Part shown: positions 44,477 through 60,586 of the stretch, piece by piece
Position numbering within the stretch: the first letter of the stretch is position 1
Layout of the letters: each line of letters opens with the position of its first letter
Origin: Candidatus Nomurabacteria bacterium GW2011_GWC2_42_20
Lineage (GTDB): Bacteria; Patescibacteriota; Minisyncoccia; Phycocordibacterales; UBA1550
Direction of reading: 5' to 3'
NCBI GenBank assembly: GCA_000998425.1
Contig: LCDG01000003.1
Coordinates: 1,619-65,618 of the forward strand
Length of the DNA stretch: 64,000 nt
Notes under the pieces: model-generated
Databases searched by the model: none
The model's input: the letters and a program-made list of their open reading frames with translations, nothing else
Told to the model about the DNA's origin: nothing
Program-made: the position numbers and the translations under genes

Positions 44477-44534
44477 AGGTTAAGTGTACCAAATTTATAG
44501 CAAACAGAATCATCGCATTGCCTGTTTTTGTTCA

Positions 44535-44544
44535 AAGCTGGGAG
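44535..44544. repeat. degenerate direct repeat of tRNA-Gln 3' end (candidate distal att site)
   Basis: aagctgggag is identical to 50686..50695 at the tRNA-Gln 3' end. The flanking ttgggacgaa resembles the T-arm ttggaatcgaa. Confidence 0.35.
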
Positions 44545-44601
44545 TTTGGGACGAAGTGGGAACTTTATTACTGATAAAAAACTTTCATATTGTTAATGCC
44601 A

Positions 44602-45705
44602 CTAGCTCTGATCCGGCCAGAATTCGATAATAAAATCATGTTTACTATACGGATATCCATCATATTCTTTTACAAAACCATTATTTTTTACACTTATTTT
44701 TGCCTTCATCAAACTTAACGCCTTTTTTACAATAAAAAGACCTATACCTGTTCCATCTTGAGCTATTCCTGACTTATCTTCTTTTGGCTTTTTAACATTT
44801 CTCCCTTGTCTATTTTCTAGAAATATTGTTTCTTTCTCGTCGTCCTCTATAGATACGCTAGTCATCGATAAAATTAATTTTTTAGATCTTGAAGATAGGT
44901 CAGCTGTAATTTCGATGTCAGTGTCGTGTAAAGCATACTTGCTGATATTGTCAAAAATTTGCCATATGACAGCGTTAAATAAACTGTGAACCACATTTAT
45001 TTTATTTAGTGAGGCTAAATCAGTATTTATATTAATATTTATTTCTATATTTTTTTTCCTCAGTTCATCAACAAAAGGATTAGTTAACCGATACATCGCC
45101 TTTTGAATATTTACAGGAAGAAATGAACCTGTACTATCAGCATACCCACCTATGATTCGAAGAGTTTCTATTTGTGCGTCTAAATCTATTGCCCTGTGAG
45201 ACATCTGACATACATCATTAGCAGCTATGTCTGTGTTTTCCTCAATTCTTCTTTTGACCTCATCCTTAAATTCTATATATGGACGTCCCCTGGCTTTGTC
45301 TGAGATGAGCCTATCAAAATTATCTTTAAATCTTCTTTGAAATTTAATTAGGTTGTGAGAAAATCTTCTTGTAACTGCGTCAAATGATTGCCTTTGACTT
45401 GTTGCAATTTGATTAAATTTAGGAATAAAACCTAAATAAATATTACATGATCTTTGAATCGACCTATTCCCTTGAAATAATTCGTGATCAGCTTTAACGA
45501 TTAAACGCACAGATCCGAGACTATTACTTCTGTATATATTTCGGTATCCTTTTTCAGTAAAATTATCATTTTGTGAAATACTAAACTTTTCTGGAAGTGT
45601 ATGGAGTTGCCCGTATCGTGCTACAACACTACCTTTTTCGTTTTGTAGTTCAAAAAATATTATTCCGTCATTATTATCGAGACTCATGAATTTTCTTTGC
45701 GGCAA
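44602..45705 (-). CDS. cytoplasmic histidine-kinase-like protein (GHKL ATPase)
   Basis: No TM helix. Candidate H-box FSHNLIKFQ, N-box-like WQIFDNISKYA, and G2 box GTGIGLFIVKKAL. Overlaps the receiver gene by 32 nt. Confidence 0.65.
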   Translation of the reverse strand: MPQRKFMSLDNNDGIIFFELQNEKGSVVARYGQLHTLPEKFSISQNDNFTEKGYRNIYRSNSLGSVRLIVKADHELFQGNRSIQRSCNIYLGFIPKFNQIATSQRQSFDAVTRRFSHNLIKFQRRFKDNFDRLISDKARGRPYIEFKDEVKRRIEENTDIAANDVCQMSHRAIDLDAQIETLRIIGGYADSTGSFLPVNIQKAMYRLTNPFVDELRKKNIEINININTDLASLNKINVVHSLFNAVIWQIFDNISKYALHDTDIEITADLSSRSKKLILSMTSVSIEDDEKETIFLENRQGRNVKKPKEDKSGIAQDGTGIGLFIVKKALSLMKAKISVKNNGFVKEYDGYPYSKHDFIIEFWPDQS

Positions 45706-46180
45706 CTTCTATCTGATCAACAAAAACAAAGGCGTCAGCGTGTTTATCAATCCAGGCATCAGCAATAGAATGAACCTCGCTTCCTGGGATATGCCCTGCG
45801 TATCCTGAACAAAAAATTATAAACTTCTCAGGGTATCTTTTTTTGATACTTTTAAGTAAGCCTATCCCACTCTCTTTTGGAGTTAAGACATTTCCAACTC
45901 CAACATAATCCATAAAGATAATGTCAGCACTTTTTATATCTTCAGCGTCAAAATTTATAACATCATTAATTTGATTAACATTCCAGCCAGCATTTCTAAT
46001 TGTCGACAGAGTAACACCAAAGTCTTCATCGTCTATAAATAAAATTTTGGTTATTTTTTTTATCTCTTCTATCGACAGTACTTTTTTACCTGAATATTTT
46101 GCTTTTATCCACTTTTCAGCCTTATCCATGCCAACAGTTGCCAATATTGTGCAAACTTTAGTTGCTATTGTTTCTATCAT
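45674..46180 (-). CDS. stand-alone receiver (REC) domain protein with 40-aa N-extension
   Basis: CheY-like strand pattern ILFIDDE (acidic pocket), IIFMDY (phospho-Asp), and IIFCSGY. No output domain. Confidence 0.6.
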   Translation of the reverse strand: MIETIATKVCTILATVGMDKAEKWIKAKYSGKKVLSIEEIKKITKILFIDDEDFGVTLSTIRNAGWNVNQINDVINFDAEDIKSADIIFMDYVGVGNVLTPKESGIGLLKSIKKRYPEKFIIFCSGYAGHIPGSEVHSIADAWIDKHADAFVFVDQIEVAAKKIHESR

Positions 46181-46293
46181 ATATTTATTCTTTAGTTTTT
46201 TTGTGGCTTCACTTTTTGAGAAAGTTCTTTCTTGTTGAATTTCCCATATTTGTTAATGATAGTCTACCACAATGTGGGAGGATACGCATTGTT

Positions 46294-46788
46294 TTAAGGA
46301 GTAATTTTAGAATCGATCTGTGTTTTTAAATCCATTTCTTTTGGAATAGAGGTAATATGCAGAATAGGAATACCGCACTGGTTTAGTACTCTATCCACAA
46401 AGCCGTCACGAACCTGCCTCTCTGGTCTTTGGTGTGTGTAATCATCGAGTTCAATGACAAGAACAGGCGAAATATTTTGTTTATCGAAAAGCACAAAGTC
46501 TACTGATTTTTGGTCTATTTTATTTCTGTATCCACCCCTAAGAGAGCCTTTACCTTCAAGCATTACGATTTTATCAAGAGCAAGTTGTGGAAAAATGTAA
46601 TATTTACCATCAACAGCTCGTTCAAGAACACTCAAAAATTCTCGCTCTGCACGAGTAAGTAACCATGTCTTTTTTGAATACGGAAGCCATTCATCTTTTT
46701 CGTTTACCCTCCCACCTTTTCTCGTTAATTCGCCCACAACAAATCCAACAACCGCAACGATGACAGCAAATATAACAAGATTATTCAT
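46294..46788 (-). CDS. membrane-anchored DUF2726/NERD-like nuclease-fold protein
   Basis: N-terminal TM, then FLSVLERAV...FPQLALDKIV...KSVDFVLFDK...PVLVIELDDYTHQRPERQVRDGFVDRVLNQCGIPILH, the DUF2726 pattern. Confidence 0.55.
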   Translation of the reverse strand: MNNLVIFAVIVAVVGFVVGELTRKGGRVNEKDEWLPYSKKTWLLTRAEREFLSVLERAVDGKYYIFPQLALDKIVMLEGKGSLRGGYRNKIDQKSVDFVLFDKQNISPVLVIELDDYTHQRPERQVRDGFVDRVLNQCGIPILHITSIPKEMDLKTQIDSKITP

Positions 46789-47341
46789 GGTTAATATTAT
46801 CTAGAATTATTTTTGCTTCCGCAAGCAAATTTTTAGTTACGCTTAGGTTCCATGCTCGCATCGTGCTATGCCATTTCCGGTATTTAAGAAATTGCTCCCA
46901 TGTTAATTCGATTATTCTTTTAGGTTTATAATTCTTAAATATTTGCACAATAATTACATATTCAAATTTCTTTTCTAGCTGATTAATGTCATTATTATCT
47001 CCGCACCCATAAAATACACCAGTGGTAGTTCCTGGCTCCGAAACTGTTTTAATACTATACCTTTCTCCTTTGCGGCTTAACGCATCAACATTTTGAGTAC
47101 CTTCTGGTGCAGCTTGTAATTTTGACAAGCCAGCTATGAAATTATAAGTTTCTACCGCCAAAAATTCCCCTCTCTCGCCAACCATATTGTTTGTTCTTGC
47201 TAGGTTACGTCTCCTCAACTCTTGTTGGGTTTCACCGTAGTTTAGCCACAACTCCTCATTGTCTAATTGACCTAGATTTATTTTGTTCAAATCTTTATCA
47301 TGAGTAGAATTCTTCTCCTTTTTATTAGTTTCTATTCCCAT
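46781..47341 (-). CDS. hypothetical protein (possible PD-(D/E)xK-like fold)
   Basis: 186 aa; GERGEFLAVETYNF and VDALSRKGERYSIKT are faintly restriction-endonuclease-like. 8-nt overlap with the downstream DUF2726 gene indicates an operon. Confidence 0.4.
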   Translation of the reverse strand: MGIETNKKEKNSTHDKDLNKINLGQLDNEELWLNYGETQQELRRRNLARTNNMVGERGEFLAVETYNFIAGLSKLQAAPEGTQNVDALSRKGERYSIKTVSEPGTTTGVFYGCGDNNDINQLEKKFEYVIIVQIFKNYKPKRIIELTWEQFLKYRKWHSTMRAWNLSVTKNLLAEAKIILDNINHE

Positions 47342-47755
47342 AGCATTACTCTTACATATCCCATTTACTTAGTCCAGCAGAAAAGTGCCATCCTCAATAT
47401 CTTCTTGCTTGCAGAAACCGTATGATACATAATTTAACTATGCCTGCGGGCGAGAGTTTTTTCGACTGTCGATTACCTAAATTGAAGGCAGGCATAACAA
47501 AATAGCTCTCATAACTGAGGGCTTTTTTGCTGTCTAAAAACCGCAAAAATTCCTATATATCTAATGGATTTACATAGCGACCGCTTGCTATCATTAGCAA
47601 GTTAGTGTATTATCAAATTGTAGCTTGACGTCAGAAAATTTCTATCGGCTTGCTGCGGGCATCAATAAAACGATGTACCTATGAGCGAAATGACACATTG
47701 TGTCTGCCGTCGCTCCGAGCTACAAATATAAGCGTCACCTCAACGGGTGGCGCTT

Positions 47756-48208
47756 TTATTTTTTCTTCTTATTTTTCTTAAAATGAACTGAAATTATCTC
47801 AAGCTTCTCGTCTTGTAGTTCAAGGAGAACACGCAGTGACGGTTTCCCGACATGAGAGTAATCTTTTATATAGAAATGTTTTATGGGTGGCTCATATTCG
47901 TAAAAATCAAAATGAGTGATGGTTTCCTGCAGGTTATCTATAGCAAAAAATACAGCCGTCAAAGTCTGCTCTGCTGTGTGATTCTTGCTGAATTCTTTTT
48001 TGCGACTTTCAACAAAATGCTTCAAGGACTTGCGCGAAATATAAACTCTTATATTTTTATGAGGGTGACCTTTATGTTTAGACCCTCGAACGTCAAAGGC
48101 TCGTATTAGCTCAGTATGTTTTTCTATGAAGGATCCATGATCGAGATCGTAATACTCCCTCATTAGCTTTTTTATTTTATTTAATCTTCTTGGAATACTC
48201 GCTATCAT
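47756..48208 (-). CDS. hypothetical protein (lysine-rich C-terminus)
   Basis: 150-aa ORF in the island; no recognisable domain. Confidence 0.4.
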   Translation of the reverse strand: MIASIPRRLNKIKKLMREYYDLDHGSFIEKHTELIRAFDVRGSKHKGHPHKNIRVYISRKSLKHFVESRKKEFSKNHTAEQTLTAVFFAIDNLQETITHFDFYEYEPPIKHFYIKDYSHVGKPSLRVLLELQDEKLEIISVHFKKNKKKK

Positions 48209-48644
48209 AATTGCTCATATTACCATTTTTGACGCCTTGCAGGAATTTTCACGGTTTTGCGTCCATAACAGTGAAAAAGTACTCGAAAATACAACTTTTC
48301 ACGGTTATTACATTGAAGAAAAATTTTTGTTTACCATAATTTCAAAATATGATATATTAGAAGAGCTTGAAGCGTATCGAGTGTAGGCATGTGACGGCAT
48401 CACATGCGAAAAAATTCACTGCATTCTCTACCCCTTACTTCAAGGGGTGTTTCGAGTTTCAAATTCTCACAGGAACTCATCGAGGAAACAATTCAGTGCT
48501 TTAGAGAGGAGAATACTGAAGATATCTCTCCCGAAACCGCAAACGAGTATCTCAACTCGCTTTCGGGTTTTTTCCTTGCGCTTGCTGACAATCCATCCCC
48601 TCATCCAAAAGATGAGAACGGGGATGTTTGATGTACCTATATAA

Positions 48645-48692
48645 ATGCACGCTACTTTCTCGATCCTTAAGGGACGAGAAAGTAGCGTGCAT
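48645..48692. repeat. 48-bp near-perfect palindrome
   Basis: atgcacgctactttctcg (18) + atCCTTAAGGga + cgagaaagtagcgtgcat (18). Arms are perfect and the centre contains the ccttaagg palindrome. Confidence 0.7.
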
Positions 48693-48701
48693 AAGTCAAT
48701 T

Positions 48702-49178
48702 ATGAAAAAGAAGCAACCAAGTTATATAAAACTCTACCGTGCCGACCTTAGTGCCCCGCACATCAAGAACCTCTCTGATCGCGAGTTTAGGCTTTGGGTT
48801 GTCTTAAAAGTTCTTGCTGGTTGGGATCCACGACACGAGGAACACTTCATGGTCGTAAAAAGTTCAATCAGAGACTTGCAAGCGAGCCACCTTCCTACAT
48901 GGAAAAGTTCAGGAAAGTTTAGCTTAACGATTAACCAACTGATTGAGAAAGATATGATTAAGCGCATAGGTGTAGGGAAAATGAAACTTTTGAATCCTGC
49001 TCTACGAGAAGAACAAGATTTTCTTCTCAAGGAACAAAGTGTTCTTCTGGAAGAAAATCTTGTTTCGCAGAAAGAACGGGAACGGGTCAACGAAAAGCTT
49101 CAGGACATCAAAAACCTGCTTGCAAATAACGGTATTTTGAGAAAGCGCGAAAATAATATTCCGCCTAAAGAAATATAA
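48702..49178 (+). CDS. hypothetical DNA-binding (winged-helix-like) protein
   Basis: Start trimmed to the ATG at 48702, downstream of the palindrome. Basic, coiled-coil C-terminus. Sits immediately upstream of the recombinase. Confidence 0.35.
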   Translation: MKKKQPSYIKLYRADLSAPHIKNLSDREFRLWVVLKVLAGWDPRHEEHFMVVKSSIRDLQASHLPTWKSSGKFSLTINQLIEKDMIKRIGVGKMKLLNPALREEQDFLLKEQSVLLEENLVSQKERERVNEKLQDIKNLLANNGILRKRENNIPPKEI

Positions 49179-49239
49179 AGAAAAAAATGAAACTTAAACA
49201 AATATTGCTTCATTTAACCAAGGGGGCTATAGTAATTCC

Positions 49240-50718
49240 ATGAAATACATTATCTACTGTCGAAAATCCACGGAAAGCGAAGACAGACAACTTCTGTCAC
49301 TGGATGCCCAAGAACGGGAGCTTTTGGATATTGCTAATAAGCACAGCCTAGAAATTACAAAAGTTTTTCGCGAGAGCATGTCTGCCAAAGCACCTGGTCG
49401 CCCTATCTTTGACGAGATGATGAAAATCATTGAAAAAGGAAGAGCAGATGCTATCCTCTGTTGGAAAATTGATCGTCTCACGCGTAATCCTGTTGATGGC
49501 GGAAAAATTCAGTGGCTCCTGCAAACGAACAAGATAAAGTGCATTCAGACTTTCGAGAAAAGCTACTTCCCTAATGACAATGTTCTGCTCATGAGTATCG
49601 AGCAAGCAATGGCGAATCAATACATTCGAGACTTGAGCGTGAATGTAAAGCGTGGGCTACGAGAAAAATTGCTTCGTGGAGAATGGCCAAACAAGGCACC
49701 TTTTGGATATACAAACGACAAGGGGTCTAAGTTTGTCATTCCTGATCCTGTTCGTTCAAAATATGTTTCTCGTGCTTTTGAAATCTACCTCACGGGCTCA
49801 CATGGCACAAAAGATATTTCAGAAATTCTTTACAAGGAGGGTTTACGCACGGCTACAGGAAAGAAAATTTTGAAGGGGCGCATTCATAGCATTCTTTCCT
49901 CAATTTTCTACACGGGCATCATGGAAAAAGAAGGAAAATATTATGAAGGCAAACATAAGCCACTCATCTCAAAAGAAACTTTTGAGAAAGCTCAAGATCT
50001 TATGCACGGCCGTTCACGACCCCGCCCACAACGATTATTCTTCCCTCTTCGTGGCTTTCTCAAGTGTGAAAATTGCGGATGCGCCCTCACTGCATCTCTC
50101 AAAAAAGGTCATCACTATTACTACTGCACGGGAAACAGAGACTTTTGCAATGAACACAAAAGCTACATGCGAGAGGTGTACCTATATGAGAAAGTTTCTG
50201 CTGTCCTCGAATCAATTCATTTTTCAGAACGCAAGATCGAGATTATGTATCAGGCGGCCAAGGAGAGACTCGAGTTTGATAATGGGTACAACAACCAGAC
50301 TATATCCACCCTCCAAAACCATTTAAAATCGCTTGAGACGAAAGAATCCCTTTTGCTCGACACTTTCCTCGCTGAACAGATTACAAAGGATTTATACGAC
50401 GCTAAAATCCTCGCTTTGCGTAATGAGCGAGTTCAAGTTACCAAGCAACTCAAAGAAGCCGAATCACGACAACCTGTCGCGCTGTTGGAACCTACCAAAA
50501 ATGCTTTTTTAACCGCTAGTAGAGCCTCAAAAGAGTTTTTAGAAGGCGACGATTTGAAGAAAAGAAATATCCTAGAAAGTCTCTGTTGGAACCTTTCGCT
50601 CAAAGAGAAAAATATCCATACAGTGTCGCTCAAAAGTCCTTTCGACATCATGTCAAAAGCATCGAAAAATGACGGTTTGTGCACTAAGCTGGGAGGCTTG
50701 GAATCGAACCAAGATTGA
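49240..50718 (+). CDS. large serine recombinase
   Basis: Resolvase catalytic domain with Ser in YCRKSTESEDRQ, DRLTRN motif, recombinase domain, and zinc ribbon (CENCGC...YYYCTG). The C-terminus overlaps the tRNA-Gln 3' end. Confidence 0.9.
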   Translation: MKYIIYCRKSTESEDRQLLSLDAQERELLDIANKHSLEITKVFRESMSAKAPGRPIFDEMMKIIEKGRADAILCWKIDRLTRNPVDGGKIQWLLQTNKIKCIQTFEKSYFPNDNVLLMSIEQAMANQYIRDLSVNVKRGLREKLLRGEWPNKAPFGYTNDKGSKFVIPDPVRSKYVSRAFEIYLTGSHGTKDISEILYKEGLRTATGKKILKGRIHSILSSIFYTGIMEKEGKYYEGKHKPLISKETFEKAQDLMHGRSRPRPQRLFFPLRGFLKCENCGCALTASLKKGHHYYYCTGNRDFCNEHKSYMREVYLYEKVSAVLESIHFSERKIEIMYQAAKERLEFDNGYNNQTISTLQNHLKSLETKESLLLDTFLAEQITKDLYDAKILALRNERVQVTKQLKEAESRQPVALLEPTKNAFLTASRASKEFLEGDDLKKRNILESLCWNLSLKEKNIHTVSLKSPFDIMSKASKNDGLCTKLGGLESNQD

Positions 50719-50759
50719 CGGCTTCAAAGGCCGCTGTCCTACCATTAGACGATCTCCCA
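50689..50759 (-). tRNA. tRNA-Gln (UUG)
   Basis: Hand-folded cloverleaf: U1-A72 first pair as in bacterial tRNA-Gln, D-arm GUCU/AAUGGUA/GGAC, anticodon stem GCGGC/GCCGU with loop CUUUGAA, T-arm CUUGG UUCGAUU CCAAG, discriminator G; CCA not encoded. Confidence 0.85.
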
Positions 50760-57316: not shown

Positions 57317-59524
57317 ATGGCAACCAAACAATACAAACTCCTCATCGTAGAATCGCCGTCAAAGGCGAAGACTATTGGGAAATATCTTGGGGACGAATAT
57401 GTTGTAAAGGCGAGCGTTGGGCATATTCGCGACCTTCCAAAATCAAACAAGCAAGCTATCGATATCCCCGGGGGCTTTATTCCTTTTTACGAAATCTCAA
57501 AAGGTAAATCCGATGTGGTGCATGAGATTGACTCACTTGCAAAGAAAGCGAGCGAGGTGCTTCTTGCAACCGACCCTGACCGTGAAGGTGAGGCTATCGC
57601 ATGGCACATTGCAGAAGCATGCGGTCTAAAAAAACCAAAGCGTGTCACCTATCACGAGATCACCAAGAGTGCCATAGAGGAAGCCATCGCGCATCCACGC
57701 GAGATTGATGCCAACCTTGTGAAAGCGCAGGAGGCGCGACGCGTTCTAGACAGACTCGTGGGATACGACCTCTCGGGTCTCATTTGGAAAAAAGTTCGCT
57801 ACGGTCTCTCGGCAGGGCGCGTGCAATCCCCCGCTCTCCGCATTATCATGGAGCGCGAGCGTGAAATCCGTGCCTTTATTCCAGAGGCGTATTGGACCCT
57901 CACAGCAAAAGTAAAAACAATGAAAGGCGCCGAGCTTGAGCTTTCATGCACAGAGGAACCCAGTGATGAATCAATCGTAAAAAATATCCTAAAAATAGGT
58001 CGCGCAAATCAGTGGGTTGTGCGTGAGGTAAAAGAAAGCGAGGTGGGCCGTTCACCAAAGGCACCATTCATTACTTCTACACTTCAGCAGGCTGGTTCTT
58101 CACGCTTTGGATTTGCACCGTCACGCACTATGGGTATCGCGCAAAAGCTTTACGAAAAAGGTTTCATTACCTACATGCGTACCGACAGCACAACTCTCTC
58201 TAAAGACGCAACCACCGCGATACTTGCAGAAATTACGAAACGCTATGGCGCACAGTCAGCTGAGGCACGCGTGTATAAAACCAAGAGCAAAAATGCCCAA
58301 GAAGCGCACGAGGCTATACGCCCTACCGACGTGAGTAAGGACAACCTCGGCATCAATCCCGAAGAACAAAAGCTTTACCGTCTCATTTGGGCGCGAACCA
58401 TTGCATCACAAATGGTGGACGCGAAGCTTGCAAGAACAACAATACTCGCTAATGTGCGAGATTTCAGCGTGCCAAACTTTTCTGTCACTGGTTCGCGTGT
58501 CATCACACAAGGATGGCTTGCCGCAGATCCTGACTCTCGTAGTGAGGATGTCGAACTTCCAAAAGTTGCTGAAGGTGAGTCGCTCATTCTACTTTCTCTC
58601 GATGATGAGGCAAAATTTACCGAGCCACCAGGACGCTACTCTGAAGCAGGTCTCGTGAAGGAGCTTGAAAAGCGCGACATCGGTCGTCCTTCTACGTATG
58701 CGTCTATTATTAAAACGATTCAGGATCGTGGCTATGTCATTAAAGATGGTAAAGCACTCAAGCCGACAGACACGGGGGACGTCGTGAGCTCATTCCTCGA
58801 GGAACATTTTGCAAACTATATTTCAGACACCTTCACATCAGAGATGGAGAACAAGCTCGACGATATAGCAAACGGCGAGCGCGAGTATGTAAAAACACTC
58901 AAGGATTTTTATGGTCCATTTTCCAAAGACCTCAAGGCAAAAGACAAGTTAGATAAACAGACGACTCTCGGCGACGCAGACCCACAACACAAATGTCCAA
59001 AATGCAACAGCCCGATGATAATCAAGCTCGCGCGTACGGGGAAGTTTCTCTCGTGTAAAAAATATCCTGACTGCGACGGCGCGCGCATGATAGACGGCAC
59101 CGAGCTTGCCGGCCCGCGCGATACTGGAGAGCTTTGTCCAAAATGTGGAAAATCAAACCTATTTGAACGTGATGGGCGATTTGGAAGATTCATTGCCTGC
59201 GGCAATTATCCAAAATGTAAACATATTAAAAAAGACGAGACTGCCGCGCTCCTCAACCACACGGGTGTCCCCTGCCCAATGTGTAAAAAGGGTTTTATGA
59301 CAGAGCGCAAGGGTCGCTTTGGAATTTTTTATAGTTGTACTGGCTACCCAGACTGCAAAAATGCAATCAAAGCAAGGCCGACAGGCAGAATTTGTGAGTA
59401 TCCAAAAATTGACGGCACCCCTTGCGACTCACTCATGATGGAAGGCACGAAGACAATTCCAGAACGCTGTTCAAATAAATTGTGCCCAAACCATAATCCA
59501 CATAAACTAGAGAAGGTGAGCTAG
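57317..59524 (+). CDS. topA: DNA topoisomerase I
   Basis: Toprim (ESPSKAKTI), catalytic Tyr region, and three C-terminal C4 zinc ribbons. Confidence 0.95.
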   Translation: MATKQYKLLIVESPSKAKTIGKYLGDEYVVKASVGHIRDLPKSNKQAIDIPGGFIPFYEISKGKSDVVHEIDSLAKKASEVLLATDPDREGEAIAWHIAEACGLKKPKRVTYHEITKSAIEEAIAHPREIDANLVKAQEARRVLDRLVGYDLSGLIWKKVRYGLSAGRVQSPALRIIMEREREIRAFIPEAYWTLTAKVKTMKGAELELSCTEEPSDESIVKNILKIGRANQWVVREVKESEVGRSPKAPFITSTLQQAGSSRFGFAPSRTMGIAQKLYEKGFITYMRTDSTTLSKDATTAILAEITKRYGAQSAEARVYKTKSKNAQEAHEAIRPTDVSKDNLGINPEEQKLYRLIWARTIASQMVDAKLARTTILANVRDFSVPNFSVTGSRVITQGWLAADPDSRSEDVELPKVAEGESLILLSLDDEAKFTEPPGRYSEAGLVKELEKRDIGRPSTYASIIKTIQDRGYVIKDGKALKPTDTGDVVSSFLEEHFANYISDTFTSEMENKLDDIANGEREYVKTLKDFYGPFSKDLKAKDKLDKQTTLGDADPQHKCPKCNSPMIIKLARTGKFLSCKKYPDCDGARMIDGTELAGPRDTGELCPKCGKSNLFERDGRFGRFIACGNYPKCKHIKKDETAALLNHTGVPCPMCKKGFMTERKGRFGIFYSCTGYPDCKNAIKARPTGRICEYPKIDGTPCDSLMMEGTKTIPERCSNKLCPNHNPHKLEKVS

Positions 59525-59661
59525 GAAGCATGCTTTGCGTGCGCAAATCGTCTTCGTGGGGCGGAGCTATATCGAGTGAAGCGAGATAATGAGCCGGGGT
59601 CGAGAGTACTTAGTCCGCGCAGTGTGTACACACACGAGCAGACTTAGTAACTCGTAACCAG

Positions 59662-59734
59662 GACAATACCCGAACGTTGCTCAAATAAACTTTGTCCCAA
59701 CCATAACCCGCACAAACTAGAGAAAATTAAGTAG
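59662..59734 (+). repeat. second copy of topA 3' coding end (synonymously diverged)
   Basis: Encodes TIPERCSNKLCPNHNPHKLEKIK*, against topA ...TIPERCSNKLCPNHNPHKLEKVS*. 11 of 11 nucleotide differences in the first 21 codons are synonymous; a stop lies 4 codons upstream in that frame. Confidence 0.7.
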
Positions 59735-59797
59735 ATTGACACATAAATAGAGAAAAGGTAGTCTTCAAAGAGACACATTCACATAGAGGAGATTGTA

Positions 59798-60094
59798 ATG
59801 ATTGAAACACTAGGAGTAATTATTCTGTTTGTATTTATTTACTACATTCTTCCCACTATAATTATATGTGGAGGATATTTGTTGTATAAAATCTGGTCAG
59901 CAAATCCGTATGAAGTCGAGAAGGTTCAGCAAATGAAACACACAGTAAAGCTTGCAAATGCAGGTAATCAAAATGCCATTCTTGCATGCGAAGAAGACTA
60001 TCAAATTAGAAAAAGCATACGCTATGTTGACGGGCAGATCATTGCTCACTACTCAGTCCCATCTTGGATGACTTTGCGTGCCTTCGGTTTCTAA
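59798..60094 (+). CDS. small N-terminally anchored membrane protein (paralog 1)
   Basis: MIE start, one TM helix, motif KLANAGNQNAILAC. Preceded by TTGACAC-N17-TAGTCTT and an AGGAG ribosome-binding site. Confidence 0.45.
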   Translation: MIETLGVIILFVFIYYILPTIIICGGYLLYKIWSANPYEVEKVQQMKHTVKLANAGNQNAILACEEDYQIRKSIRYVDGQIIAHYSVPSWMTLRAFGF

Positions 60095-60105
60095 GCGACA
60101 CCTTC

Positions 60106-60140
60106 GTCCCCATTTGCTCAAGCGCAGATGGGGACATTTT
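60106..60140 (+). terminator. hairpin terminator after small ORF 1
   Basis: gtccccat ttgctcaagcgcag atggggac followed by atttt. Confidence 0.4.
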
Positions 60141-60185
60141 AAATTATAAAAACAAAAGGGATGGCTTCATCATTGCGTATGCGCA

Positions 60186-60263
60186 AAAAAAACAATCCAC
60201 GAGAGGTGTAGTAATAAACTTTGCCCAAACCATAATCCACATAAACTCAATAAACCTGAATAA
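60186..60263 (+). repeat. third copy of topA 3' coding end (heavily synonymously recoded)
   Basis: Encodes KKTIHERCSNKLCPNHNPHKLNKPE*. Differences include CGC->AGG (Arg) and TCA->AGT (Ser) codon-family switches. No ATG precedes it in frame. Confidence 0.7.
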
Positions 60264-60319
60264 TTGACACTTATGGGCGATAAGTATAGTCTTTGATCTA
60301 GACACTATTTAAGGAGGTT

Positions 60320-60586
60320 GTGATGATTGAAAAAATAAGTTTTTCACTGATTGGGCTCTTTGTTCTTCTGATGATTTGGCCGTGGCTCATGGAGCTGATT
60401 TTGTATGACAAGACGACACGTCAAACGCGTCAACGTCTACAACTTCTCATAAAACGAGCAAACAACGGCAATGACGCAGCTCGAAGGGCGTGCGACAGAA
60501 ATGGTCTCATCAACAAAGGAATGGTTCTTTGCGAGGATGGGATAAACGTGAAGAGTGTCTATTCCCTTCCGCATAGATGGCAATGA
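60320..60586 (+). CDS. small N-terminally anchored membrane protein (paralog 2)
   Basis: MMIE start, one TM helix, motif KRANNGNDAARRAC; the promoter and ribosome-binding module is homologous to paralog 1's. Confidence 0.45.
   Translation: MMIEKISFSLIGLFVLLMIWPWLMELILYDKTTRQTRQRLQLLIKRANNGNDAARRACDRNGLINKGMVLCEDGINVKSVYSLPHRWQ

What the first reader, a model, noticed from the sequence alone, without database searches (positions are those of the whole stretch)
44535..50759. About 6.2-kb integrated island at tRNA-Gln, bounded by a degenerate repeat of the tRNA 3' end
A large serine recombinase gene (49240..50718) runs into the 3' end of a minus-strand tRNA-Gln(UUG) (50689..50759). 6.15 kb away, at 44535..44544, the 10-mer aagctgggag (tRNA acceptor 3' strand, discriminator and 3 nt) recurs in the same orientation, with adjacent degenerate similarity to the T-arm. 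A specific 10-mer match between a 40-nt tRNA end and one roughly 150-bp intergenic region is expected by chance about 0.6% of the time. The interval is visibly AT-richer and holds only non-housekeeping genes. Flanking genes on both sides (DedA/dinB on one side, dnaX on the other) are core genes.
Basis: partly seen in the sequence, partly recalled or inferred. Interest (0 to 1): 0.75.

Follow-up and report, generated by a model that had tools for sequence, protein, structure and literature searches.

The report
Serine-recombinase defence island at tRNA-Gln
A 6.15-kb mobile island carrying candidate anti-phage genes sits at the very 3' end of tRNA-Gln in a groundwater Patescibacteria genome. It was put there by a large serine recombinase from a widespread family that targets tRNA genes, a habit normally associated with tyrosine integrases.

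Summary

**The island.** Window 44539..50689 is an integrated element, bounded by attL and attR.
- attL is the tRNA-Gln 3' end fused to the 3' end of a 492-aa large serine recombinase (LSR) gene.
- attR is a 25-nt arm, GTTCCCACTTCGTCCCAAACTCCCA, followed by the tRNA's old trailer.

**Evidence from related genomes.**
- Near-identical metagenome contigs carry the same flanks. Between the same two points they hold a different, recombinase-less radical-SAM cassette.
- Related Yonathbacteria have dnaX, tRNA-Gln, DedA and dinB with no island.

**Evidence from the LSR family.**
- At least 568 genome loci encode relatives; the best 80 are almost all labelled Patescibacteria.
- In 63 of those 80, the ORF runs antisense into a tRNA (26 Gln, 24 Ser, 8 other types).
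- The far end carries the conserved motif GTTCCAACTTCGTCCCA plus about 7 nt that co-vary with the target tRNA's acceptor end.
- The GTTC motif lies 5 bp further from the crossover in attP than in the tRNA, which is canonical LSR geometry.
- One relative is a circular 5.9-kb contig with an intact attP.

**Cargo.** PDC-M43, a methyl-directed restriction enzyme and DUF2726.

**Not shown.** Excision of this copy, its directionality factor, and an empty site in this strain. Relatives also show arrays of single-gene cassettes, each ending in the motif.

The parts
50688..50759 (-). tRNA-Gln(UUG), intact and chromosomal. Its 3' 20 nt (G53-A72, window 50690-50709) form the B arm of the attachment site.
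   Evidence: ARAGORN. Identical in island-bearing, cassette-bearing and island-free relatives.
50664..50709 (-). attL: tRNA T-arm and acceptor 3' strand (B arm), inferred crossover A72-G73 (window 50690/50689), then the P' arm, which is the antisense of the recombinase gene's last codons.
   Evidence: Homology with the cassette-bearing allele stops exactly at 50688. Junction sequences.
49240..50718 (+). Large serine recombinase, 492 aa. The last 10 codons (LGGLESNQD + stop) are encoded by the antisense of the tRNA. The excised form is predicted at 513 aa, with tail ...GVWDEVGT...
   Evidence: Pfam Resolvase 1.8e-21, Recombinase 1.1e-13, Zn_ribbon_recom 5.9e-6. 2830 homologs. Tails. Closest solved structure is SPbeta integrase, 3e-11.
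48645..49178 (+). ORF of 177 aa (more likely 158 aa from ATG 48703) immediately upstream of the recombinase. It occupies the position held by a rolling-circle Rep in relatives, but has no Rep signature.
   Evidence: No Pfam, PHROG or PADLOC hit. Called as 158/163 aa in L001/L002. L011 and L035 have PF23343/phrog_3419 Rep at this position. tblastn with the Rep proteins found nothing here.
48645..48692 (.). 48-bp loop-less palindrome (24-nt arms, 92% complementary) between the small conserved ORF and the next gene. Candidate operator or origin.
   Evidence: the repeat finder I2. Conserved in L010 at about 90%.
48404..48631 (+). Small ORF (75 aa as listed; conserved part starts at SFKFSQELIEETI). 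It is conserved about 1 kb upstream of the recombinase in at least 18 family loci. Candidate directionality factor or regulator.
   Evidence: tblastx 54-65% identity to L011, L013, L016, L018, L022, L035 and others. Homologs MSFKFSQKLI... in L011 and L035. No family hit.
47756..48208 (-). Cargo ORF, 150 aa, lysine-rich C-terminus, no informative hit.
46781..47341 (-). Cargo: candidate methyl-directed type II restriction endonuclease (186 aa).
   Evidence: PADLOC mREase_II 1.6e-55, profile covered 3-165 of 172.
46294..46788 (-). Cargo: DUF2726 protein (164 aa). It overlaps the restriction enzyme gene by 8 nt.
   Evidence: Pfam PF10881 9.4e-27.
45674..46180 (-). Cargo: PDC-M43A-like protein (168 aa), first gene of a candidate two-gene defence system.
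   Evidence: PADLOC PDLC04646 1.7e-28.
44602..45705 (-). Cargo: PDC-M43B-like HATPase_c protein (367 aa from TTG; 361 aa from ATG 45687).
   Evidence: PADLOC PDLC04647 2.2e-29. Pfam HATPase_c 1.1e-6.
44514..44563 (-). attR: P arm (44539-44563; family motif GTTCCCACTTCGTCCCAAAC at 44544-44563, then an acceptor-end mimic), inferred crossover at 44539/44538, then the B' arm TTTGAACAAAAAC..., which is the old tRNA trailer.
   Evidence: Motif with 1 mismatch, 0.01 expected. Conserved in about 45 of 80 family loci, always on the tRNA strand and always upstream of the recombinase. B' matches the L183 tRNA-fragment trailer.
44539..50689 (.). The integrated element as a whole (6151 bp between the inferred exchange points).

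Best explanation
Window 44539..50689 is a 6.15-kb integrative element of a Patescibacteria (Yonathbacteria-like, groundwater) chromosome.

**Integration (inferred).** Its large serine recombinase joined an attP on the circular element to an attB made of the last ~20 nt of tRNA-Gln plus its trailer. Strand exchange most likely occurs at tRNA positions 72-73 (AG). The whole tRNA therefore stays chromosomal and intact, and only its 3' trailer changes.

**Site recognition (inferred).**
- The attP left arm imitates the tRNA end.
- It shares an outer GTTC(C/G)AA motif with the universal T-loop. I infer this is the zinc-ribbon-domain contact.
- Its inner ~7-14 nt copy the acceptor and T-stem 3' strand.
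- Five extra base pairs sit between the two parts. That is the spacing difference by which serine integrases tell attP from attB.
- The right-hand half of attB is not conserved between genomes. I infer that any tRNA-end junction can be hit again, which would explain the tandem arrays seen in relatives.

**Effect on the recombinase protein.** attP lies inside the last codons of the recombinase ORF. Integration therefore swaps the protein's tail from ...GVWDEVGT... (P-arm encoded) to ...GGLESNQD (tRNA antisense). It also makes the gene converge on the tRNA.

**Cargo.** The cargo is a small defence set: PDC-M43 A+B, a methyl-directed restriction enzyme and DUF2726.

**Shown:** anatomy, strain polymorphism, family-wide tRNA association, conserved P arm, and a circular relative with attP.
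**Inferred:** exact crossover, domain contacts, current mobility of this copy, and any role of the tail swap.
For: 1. **Strain polymorphism at exact boundaries.**
- L004, L008 and L009 share both flanks but carry other DNA between window 50688 and 44569.
- The dnaX-tRNA spacer is identical in island-bearing and cassette-bearing contigs.

2. **Island-free synteny in relatives.**
- L180-L183 lack the island, and the L183 tRNA is 72/72 identical to the window's.
- L183 has a tRNA 3' fragment fused to TTTGAGC.

3. **The family targets tRNAs.**
- At least 568 genome loci encode relatives.
- 63 of the best 80 have a tRNA abutting the ORF 3' end. In 59 of these the ORF overlaps the tRNA by at least 13 nt. 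Most overlaps fall in one reading-frame class (1 mod 3) relative to the tRNA end.
- 68 of 120 homologs end in the T-arm antisense peptide DSN.

4. **The P arm is conserved and matches its target.**
- The motif is found with up to 4 mismatches in about 45 of 80 loci. It is always on the tRNA strand and upstream of the recombinase, with 0 hits on the other strand in 1.22 Mb.
- Its 7-nt tail matches the local tRNA end at 5.61 of 7 positions. Shuffled pairings average 4.56, with a maximum of 4.95 in 1000 shuffles.

5. **Geometry fits serine integrases.**
- GTTC lies 19 nt from AG in the tRNA and 24 nt from AG in the P arm.
- This matches the 5-bp zinc-ribbon-motif shift described by Rutherford 2013 (PMC3783163).

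6. **An excised form exists in the family.**
- L099 has a 30-nt terminal overlap, implying a circular 5932-bp element. It has no tRNA and has the P arm joined to the recombinase 3' end.
- Homologs P0022, P0031, P0035, P0059 and P0087 end in VW[DFY][ED]VGT, as predicted for attP.

7. **Composition and cargo.** Cargo GC is about 6 sd below the window mean, and the cargo hits defence models.
Against: - No circular or attP form of this particular element was found, and no truly empty attB in this population. The metagenome pattern scan returned only one attR contig.
- No recombination directionality factor is identified.
- The window's element lacks the rolling-circle Rep that relatives carry, so it may not be autonomous.
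- The right half-sites (B', P') show no clear dyad symmetry or conservation. That is atypical for serine integrases and leaves the site model incomplete.
- The AG crossover rests on the smallest shared block among ten islands, and on L038 in particular. Post-integration mutation could mislead it.
- The allele swap between strains could have spread by homologous recombination in the identical flanks rather than by recombinase activity.
Confidence: 0.85

Rival explanations
1. Integron-like cassette platform. The GTTCCAACTTCGTCCCA-plus-acceptor site acts as a cassette-borne recombination site. Recombinase-less units (one or a few genes plus one site) are captured, excised and swapped at tRNA ends by a recombinase supplied in cis or in trans. 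On this view the window shows one state of such a platform rather than a self-contained island.
For: - L004, L008 and L009 carry a recombinase-less radical-SAM cassette at the same site. It ends in a P site that is 28/28 identical to one in L011, a different genome.
- Arrays of 2-5 P sites occur in L011, L035, L016, L020, L025, L031, L050, L070, L084 and L098.
- Units between sites are 405-2128 bp. Each holds 1-2 unrelated genes, almost all co-oriented with the tRNA, with the stop codon about 17-40 nt before the next site.
- All sites within an array match the same tRNA end.
Against: - Tandem accretion of complete elements is directly seen. Truncated second recombinase genes lie distal to P sites in L013, L069, L078, L086 and L084. 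Decay could therefore produce recombinase-less units.
- The recombinase gene always sits next to the tRNA, which is not where a fixed platform gene would stay if cassettes were inserted at the tRNA.
- No free circular cassette was found, and no cassette was seen in two different arrays.
- The window has only one P site.
Confidence: 0.25
2. Immobile relic. The element integrated once by the mechanism above but is now fixed or defective. On this view it has no Rep, an unknown directionality factor, and an altered tail. The island/cassette polymorphism is then shuffled only by homologous recombination between the identical flanks.
For: - No attP or attB reads or contigs were found for this element.
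- The 6427-bp contig L091 is the integrated form with short flanks.
- Flanks of the two alleles are essentially identical, which is ideal for homologous recombination.
- The gene upstream of the recombinase has no Rep signature.
Against: - The recombinase ORF is full length, with every family-invariant residue.
- Copies from several samples are 99.7-100% identical, with no pseudogenisation.
- The swap boundaries fall exactly at the att sites rather than at arbitrary points in the flanks.
Confidence: 0.2
3. Prophage or phage satellite integrated at the tRNA.
For: - Serine integrases are typical of temperate phages.
- One cargo protein has a weak Minor_tail_Z hit (0.0014, below cutoff).
- Some relatives carry a Phage_CRI-type Rep.
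Against: - The element is 6 kb with no capsid, terminase or tail genes.
- The same protein hits a restriction-enzyme model at 1.6e-55.
- The family is nearly absent from 2.9 million viral contigs: 3 distant hits at 33-42% identity.
Confidence: 0.03
4. Chance repeat beside ancestral genes. On this view the 10-mer is coincidental, and the block is a native, low-GC part of the chromosome that happens to contain a recombinase.
For: 10-mers matching the tRNA end occur three times in the 49 kb upstream. The recombinase module has host-like GC.
Against: The block is absent from otherwise identical strains and from related species. The end also carries a motif conserved across dozens of unrelated genomes at the equivalent position.
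Confidence: 0.01

Closest known systems
tRNA-gene genomic islands mobilised by tyrosine integrases (Islander/TIGER-type islands; P4-like, pSAM2-like)
   Same: Integration at the 3' part of a tRNA gene. The tRNA stays intact at one end and a tRNA-like direct repeat lies at the other. The integrase gene sits at the tRNA-proximal end. Cargo is AT-rich and accessory, and presence among strains is sporadic.
   Different: - The enzyme is a large serine recombinase, not a tyrosine integrase.
- Exchange is at the last 2 nt of the tRNA, so almost no tRNA sequence is duplicated (10 nt here, 3-6 nt in relatives).
- The distal repeat is an attP arm with a 5-nt insertion, not a displaced tRNA fragment.
- Mageeney et al. 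2020 (PMC7192596) state that use of a t(m)RNA gene by a serine integrase had not been reported. They found only 14 candidates among 297.
Characterised large serine integrases (SPbeta SprA, Listeria A118/LI, phiC31, Bxb1)
   Same: Three-domain architecture. Short att sites. The zinc-ribbon-domain motif sits 5 bp further out in attP than in attB. A 2-bp exchange point is inferred. Identity between attP and attB is short.
   Different: - Only about 3e-11 to SPbeta integrase by sequence.
- The target is a tRNA 3' end rather than a protein-coding gene.
- Only the left half-sites are recognisably conserved.
- attP lies inside the integrase ORF, so the C-terminus depends on integration state.
- The element is a 5-10 kb non-viral island, not a phage.
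Tycheposons of Prochlorococcus (Hackl et al., bioRxiv 10.1101/2020.12.28.424599)
   Same: Small cargo-carrying elements at tRNA genes. Tandem accretion with partial tRNA repeats. Replication genes sit next to the integrase in many members. Cargo is defence or niche-related. 27 of 937 carry a large serine recombinase.
   Different: - Different phylum, and 97% use tyrosine recombinases.
- The passages I read (keyword search only) did not describe a conserved attP arm, an ORF-tRNA overlap or serine-recombinase site geometry.
- The window's element has no recognisable replication gene.
Integrons
   Same: In relatives: arrays of co-oriented, mostly single-gene units, each ending in a conserved recombination site next to a site-specific recombinase gene. 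Content is rich in defence genes.
   Different: - The recombinase is a serine recombinase, not an IntI tyrosine recombinase.
- The sites are 27-nt double-strand-type motifs mimicking a tRNA end, not folded attC hairpins.
- The anchor is a tRNA gene, not attI.
- Cassette mobility is not demonstrated.
Integration-dependent gene alteration (SSV1 integrase partition; mycobacteriophage integration-dependent immunity) - recalled from memory
   Same: attP lies inside a coding sequence, so integration changes the encoded protein's C-terminus.
   Different: Here only the last ~10-30 residues of the recombinase change. No functional consequence has been tested.

Membership tests
Large serine recombinase (serine integrase) | N-terminal resolvase catalytic domain with the nucleophilic serine | tested here: met
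   PF00239 1.8e-21 over residues 4-149. R8 and S10 are invariant in the 30-sequence alignment.
Large serine recombinase (serine integrase) | Recombinase domain followed by a zinc-ribbon domain | tested here: met
   PF07508 1.1e-13. PF13408 at 27.0 bits against a cutoff of 25.3. Invariant C276, C279, C281 and C296.
Large serine recombinase (serine integrase) | attP and attB share an outer motif placed 5 bp further from the centre in attP | tested here: met
   For the left arms, GTTC(G/C)AA lies 19 nt from AG in the tRNA and 24 nt from AG in the P arm. The spacing is the same for the Gln and Ser sites inspected. Criterion from PMC3783163.
Large serine recombinase (serine integrase) | Two inverted half-sites around a central dinucleotide in each att site | tested here: inconclusive
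   B' is not conserved between genomes. P' conservation is confounded by coding. No clear dyad was found.
Large serine recombinase (serine integrase) | Unidirectional attP x attB recombination, reversed by a directionality factor | not testable with these tools
   The only candidate is the conserved small ORF 48404-48631.
tRNA-integrated genomic island | Intact tRNA at one end, and a direct repeat of its 3' end at the other | tested here: met
   The repeat is short (10 nt exact, 33 nt at 73%).
tRNA-integrated genomic island | Absent from close relatives at the same locus | tested here: met
   An alternative allele is in L004, L008 and L009. Island-free synteny is in L180-L183.
tRNA-integrated genomic island | Tyrosine integrase (the usual enzyme of this class) | tested here: not met
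   There is no Phage_integrase hit. The only recombinase is a serine recombinase.
Tycheposon-like element | Integrase plus autonomous replication module | tested here: not met
   The window's upstream ORF has no Rep hit. Relatives L011, L035, L098 and L099 do have rolling-circle Rep genes.
Integron | IntI-type tyrosine recombinase with attI and attC sites | tested here: not met
   The enzyme is a serine recombinase. The sites are tRNA-end mimics.
PADLOC candidate system PDC-M43 | Adjacent A and B genes | tested here: met
   A 1.7e-28 and B 2.2e-29, with the two genes overlapping. Defence activity is untested.
Methyl-directed type II restriction enzyme (PADLOC mREase_II) | Full-length match to the family profile | tested here: met
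   1.6e-55, profile positions 3-165 of 172. Activity is not testable here.

The most novel reading that the evidence does not exclude
Patescibacteria may host a serine-recombinase counterpart of the integron. Short gene cassettes would each end in a 27-nt tRNA-end mimic (GTTCCAACTTCGTCCCA + acceptor copy). The recombinase would capture, stack and swap them at the 3' ends of tRNA genes. It would read the universal T-loop as its fixed anchor and a variable acceptor segment as its address. On this reading the window's island and the radical-SAM cassette are two interchangeable loads of one such dock.
Probability: 0.25. Interest if true: 0.85.

Novelty: new variant of a known kind. Interest (0 to 1): 0.68.

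Why it matters
**For mobile-element biology.**
- tRNA genes are the classic landing pads of tyrosine integrases. Serine integrases were thought not to use them.
- Here a large, coherent family of serine integrases does so systematically, in bacteria whose mobile elements are poorly known.
- The sequence logic is readable: a universal T-loop motif as anchor, a co-varying acceptor copy as address, and the canonical 5-bp attP/attB offset.

**For defence systems.** The family gives a route by which tiny-genome Patescibacteria exchange defence genes.

**For genome engineering.**
- It is a natural series of related integrases retargeted among at least 10 tRNA types.
- That series can be used to study how serine-integrase specificity evolves.
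- It may also supply integrases whose target exists in every genome.

**Open question.** The state-dependent C-terminus and the cassette arrays can both be tested directly.

Tried and rejected
- **Exact direct-repeat search at all family loci.** It works for some Ser, Trp and Lys islands (16-25 nt). For most Gln islands it is at background level (8-10 nt), so it was replaced by the P-arm motif.
- **One metagenome scan with a degenerate pattern covering attB, attP, attL and attR.** It returned one attR contig only, which says nothing about excision.
- **Exact-protein look-ups of the recombinase and the distal cargo gene.** These were meant to find a circular form. The 6427-bp contig is the integrated form with assembly breaks in the shared flanks.
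- **Looking for dyad symmetry.** I tried the centre at CT/TC of the 10-mer and a GTTC...GAAC dyad. I dropped this in favour of AG, because AG is the only dinucleotide shared by all ten Gln attL/attR pairs.
- **Rep in the window.** tblastn with the L098 and L099 Rep proteins found nothing.
- **Pfam, PHROGs and PADLOC on the 75-, 150- and 177-aa ORFs.** No informative hits.
- **Viral-contig scan.** The family is essentially absent, so the prophage reading was rejected.
- **Literature searches.** I searched for serine recombinases at tRNAs in CPR bacteria and for serine-recombinase cassette systems. Nothing matching turned up, though the library is incomplete.
- **An apparent 2% divergence of the dnaX-side flank between alleles.** This turned out to be a single 35-bp deletion private to the window.

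Full report
**Observation.**
- ARAGORN finds a single tRNA in the window: tRNA-Gln(UUG) at 50688..50759 on the minus strand.
- The plus-strand ORF 49240..50718 encodes a 492-aa protein with Resolvase, Recombinase and Zn_ribbon_recom domains. Its TGA stop lies 31 nt inside the tRNA gene.
- AAGCTGGGAG occurs only at 44535-44544 and 50686-50695. Shuffles predict 0.05 occurrences.
- The repeat finder extends the pair to 33 nt at 73% identity, spaced 6151 bp.
- Cargo GC (44570-48300) is 0.349. Equal-sized windows elsewhere average 0.423 (sd 0.012, minimum 0.401). The recombinase module is host-like at 0.412.
- The 10-mer alone is not decisive. A 38-nt tRNA-end query finds three 10-mers in the 49 kb upstream.

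**Strain and species comparison.**
- Exact-protein look-ups of dnaX and of the 100-aa flank gene returned groundwater metagenome and MAG contigs of the same population.
- L001, L002, L007 and L092 carry the island at 99.7-99.8% identity.
- L004, L008 and L009 have the same flanks. From the tRNA's last base (window 50688) to window 44569 they carry an unrelated 2265-bp cassette and no recombinase: radical SAM, 61 aa and 283 aa.
- The dnaX-tRNA spacer is identical in both alleles. The window alone has a private 35-bp deletion there.
- Several contigs end exactly at the tRNA 3' end (L005, L006), as expected at a polymorphic junction.
- Related Candidatus Yonathbacteria (dnaX 87-88% identical) have dnaX, tRNA-Gln, DedA and dinB with no island and no motif.
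- The L183 tRNA is 72/72 identical to the window's. L183 also keeps a displaced fragment, AATCTTGGTTCGATTCCAAGCCTCACAGC, fused to TTTGAGC. The window's trailer beyond the repeat is TTTGAAC.
- The block is therefore not ancestral, and TTTGA(A/G)C is the old tRNA trailer.

**The recombinase family.**
- The protein has 2830 homologs at E<=1e-20. The top 120 are 55-93% identical, and the few that carry source names are labelled Patescibacteria lineages.
- In the alignment most C-termini read ...LDSNQD, RDSNPD or WDSNP. That is the antisense translation of a tRNA T-arm, and 68 of 120 homologs have it.
- A scan of one genome per species found at least 568 loci.
- Of the best 80, 63 have a tRNA on the opposite strand abutting the ORF end: Gln 26, Ser 24, Lys 3, Trp 2, Tyr 2, Ile 2, and Leu, Arg, Asn and Glu 1 each.
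- In 59 of the 63, the ORF overlaps the tRNA by at least 13 nt. The common overlap classes are 13, 31 and 61 nt, and most overlaps fall in one reading-frame class relative to the tRNA end.
- Several of the other 17 loci end within about 150 nt of the recombinase gene. Others have several kb of downstream sequence and no tRNA there.
- The family is almost absent from viral contigs, with 3 hits at 33-42% identity.

**The distal end.**
- Aligning the window's 44520-44580 to the regions upstream of other tRNA-Gln-linked recombinases revealed a conserved motif.
- In tRNA-strand orientation the motif is GTTCCAACTTCGTCCCAMAC, followed by about 7 nt.
- It occurs with up to 4 mismatches in about 45 of 80 loci. 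It is always on the tRNA strand, always 2.4-10 kb upstream of the recombinase start, and never on the other strand in 1.22 Mb.
- In the window it sits at 44544-44563 with one mismatch, and 0.01 would be expected by chance.
- The 7 nt after it track the local tRNA's acceptor end: xCCCAGC for Gln, TCTCCGC for Ser, GGCCCGC for Trp. The match is 5.61 of 7, against 4.56 for shuffled pairings and a maximum of 4.95 in 1000 shuffles.
- This is what an attP-derived P arm in attR should look like.

**Exchange point and geometry.**
- In ten Gln islands, the identity between attL and attR always includes tRNA nt 72-73. In L038 the shared block is only CAG. I therefore infer AG as the crossover dinucleotide.
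- The window's 10-nt identity is just a long instance.
- From GTTC to AG there are 19 nt in the tRNA (GGTTCGATTCCAAGCCTCCC|AG) and 24 nt in the P arm (GTTCCCACTTCGTCCCAAACTCCC|AG).
- Rutherford et al. 2013 showed that the zinc-ribbon-domain motif of a serine integrase sits 5 bp closer to the centre in attB than in attP (PMC3783163). The fit is exact for the left arms.
- The right arms are not conserved (B') or are confounded by coding (P'). The site model is therefore incomplete.

**Excised form.**
- Joining 50685 to 44535 predicts a 513-aa protein ending ...KLGVWDEVGTLLL....
- Homologs P0022, P0031, P0035, P0040, P0059 and P0087 end in VW[DFY][ED]VGT.
- The P0087 contig, L099, has a 30-nt terminal overlap, which is k-1 of a k=31 assembly. 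It has no tRNA, and its P arm is joined to the recombinase 3' end. It is a circular 5932-bp element with an intact attP.
- L098 is also in the attP configuration. It carries a Phage_CRI Rep, DUF2726 and a BglII restriction-modification pair.
- No such form was found for the window's own element.

**Gene content.**
- Cargo, all co-oriented with the tRNA:
  - PDC-M43B/HATPase_c (44602-45705).
  - PDC-M43A (45674-46180).
  - DUF2726 (46294-46788).
  - A methyl-directed restriction enzyme (46781-47341, 1.6e-55).
  - A 150-aa ORF.
- The core module is on the other strand:
  - A small ORF (48404-48631) conserved in at least 18 family loci.
  - A 48-bp palindrome (48645-48692).
  - A 158/177-aa ORF.
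  - The recombinase.
- In L011 and L035 the gene before the recombinase is a rolling-circle Rep. The window has none.

**Arrays in relatives.**
- Several loci have 2-5 P sites (L011 has 5, L035 has 3). The units between them are 405-2128 bp and hold 1-2 unrelated, co-oriented genes each.
- Truncated second recombinase genes lie distal to P sites in L013, L069, L078, L086 and L084. This shows true tandem accretion.
- The L004 cassette ends in a P arm that is 28/28 identical to one in L011.
- These facts fit repeated integration at the tRNA junction followed by decay. They also fit independently mobilisable cassettes. I rate the second reading at about 0.25.

**Comparison with known systems.**
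- Mageeney et al. 2020 state that use of a t(m)RNA gene by a serine integrase had not been reported. They found 14 candidates among 297 (PMC7192596).
- Tycheposons share the tRNA targeting and tandem arrays, but 97% use tyrosine recombinases.
- My searches found no description of this family or of its att logic. The library is incomplete, so this is absence of evidence only.

**Verdict.**
- The added value is that the island belongs to a large, apparently undescribed family of tRNA-targeting serine-integrase elements with a readable site code.
- Confidence in the island and its ends is 0.85.
- Confidence in the exact crossover and the domain contacts is about 0.6.

Noticed in passing
window 50786/50787 (dnaX-tRNA spacer): The window lacks 35 bp (CGTTGCCGAATCACGTTTTTTGGTGTATTGTGCGA-like). 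Every other contig of the population has them, whether it carries the island or the cassette. This is a private deletion just upstream of tRNA-Gln, possibly in its promoter.
   Followed up: partly
window 48645-48692 and 49012-49064: Two strong palindromes lie in the element's core module. The first is a loop-less 48-bp one (24-nt arms, 92%) between the small conserved ORF and the next gene. The second has 25-nt arms (84%) inside that gene. They may be an operator or an origin.
   Followed up: no
L004:1785-4049 (also L008, L009, L003): This is the alternative allele at the same tRNA-Gln site: radical SAM (360 aa) + 61 aa + 283 aa, with no recombinase. The tRNA is followed by an encoded CCA, and the unit ends in a family P arm. 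It could be a peptide-modification or defence cassette.
   Followed up: partly
L011:323-6483; L035:2406-5215; L098:3753-4308: These loci hold arrays of 2-5 P sites separating single, unrelated, co-oriented genes. The layout resembles an integron cassette array.
   Followed up: partly
L013:3437-4351, L069:3487-4518, L078:96-701, L086:2864-3898, L084:279-1310: Second, truncated recombinase genes lie beyond the first island's distal site, so elements accrete in tandem at one tRNA. In L078 the old copy's 3' end abuts a 25-nt repeat of the tRNA-Ser end.
   Followed up: partly
L099 (whole, 5962 bp) and L098: L099 is a circular 5.9-kb relative with recombinase, Rep and an intact attP. L098 carries a Phage_CRI Rep, DUF2726 and a BglII-type restriction-modification pair. 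The family often carries restriction or defence cargo.
   Followed up: yes
L183:8085-8410; L180:8185-8330: In island-free Yonathbacteria, the tRNA-Gln is accompanied by 5' or 3' tRNA-Gln fragments. These are joined to a shared ~100-nt element (TTAAGTTTTTTACAAGCGAAGCG...TATAAAAAAGCT...TTCGCGTCGC). It may be the scar of another kind of insertion or of an intron. It is absent from the window.
   Followed up: no
window 59452-60332: Dispersed 35-127-nt repeats occur at 59474-59508 and 60213-60247, 59452-59514 and 59662-59724, and others. Contig L005 has about 100 nt in place of window 59509-60221. This is a second, repeat-bounded indel polymorphism near topA.
   Followed up: no
window 49240-50718 versus the family: Protein length classes of 485, 492 and 502 aa differ only in where the tRNA antisense happens to supply a stop codon. 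Annotated C-termini of these recombinases are therefore partly tRNA-encoded.
   Followed up: yes
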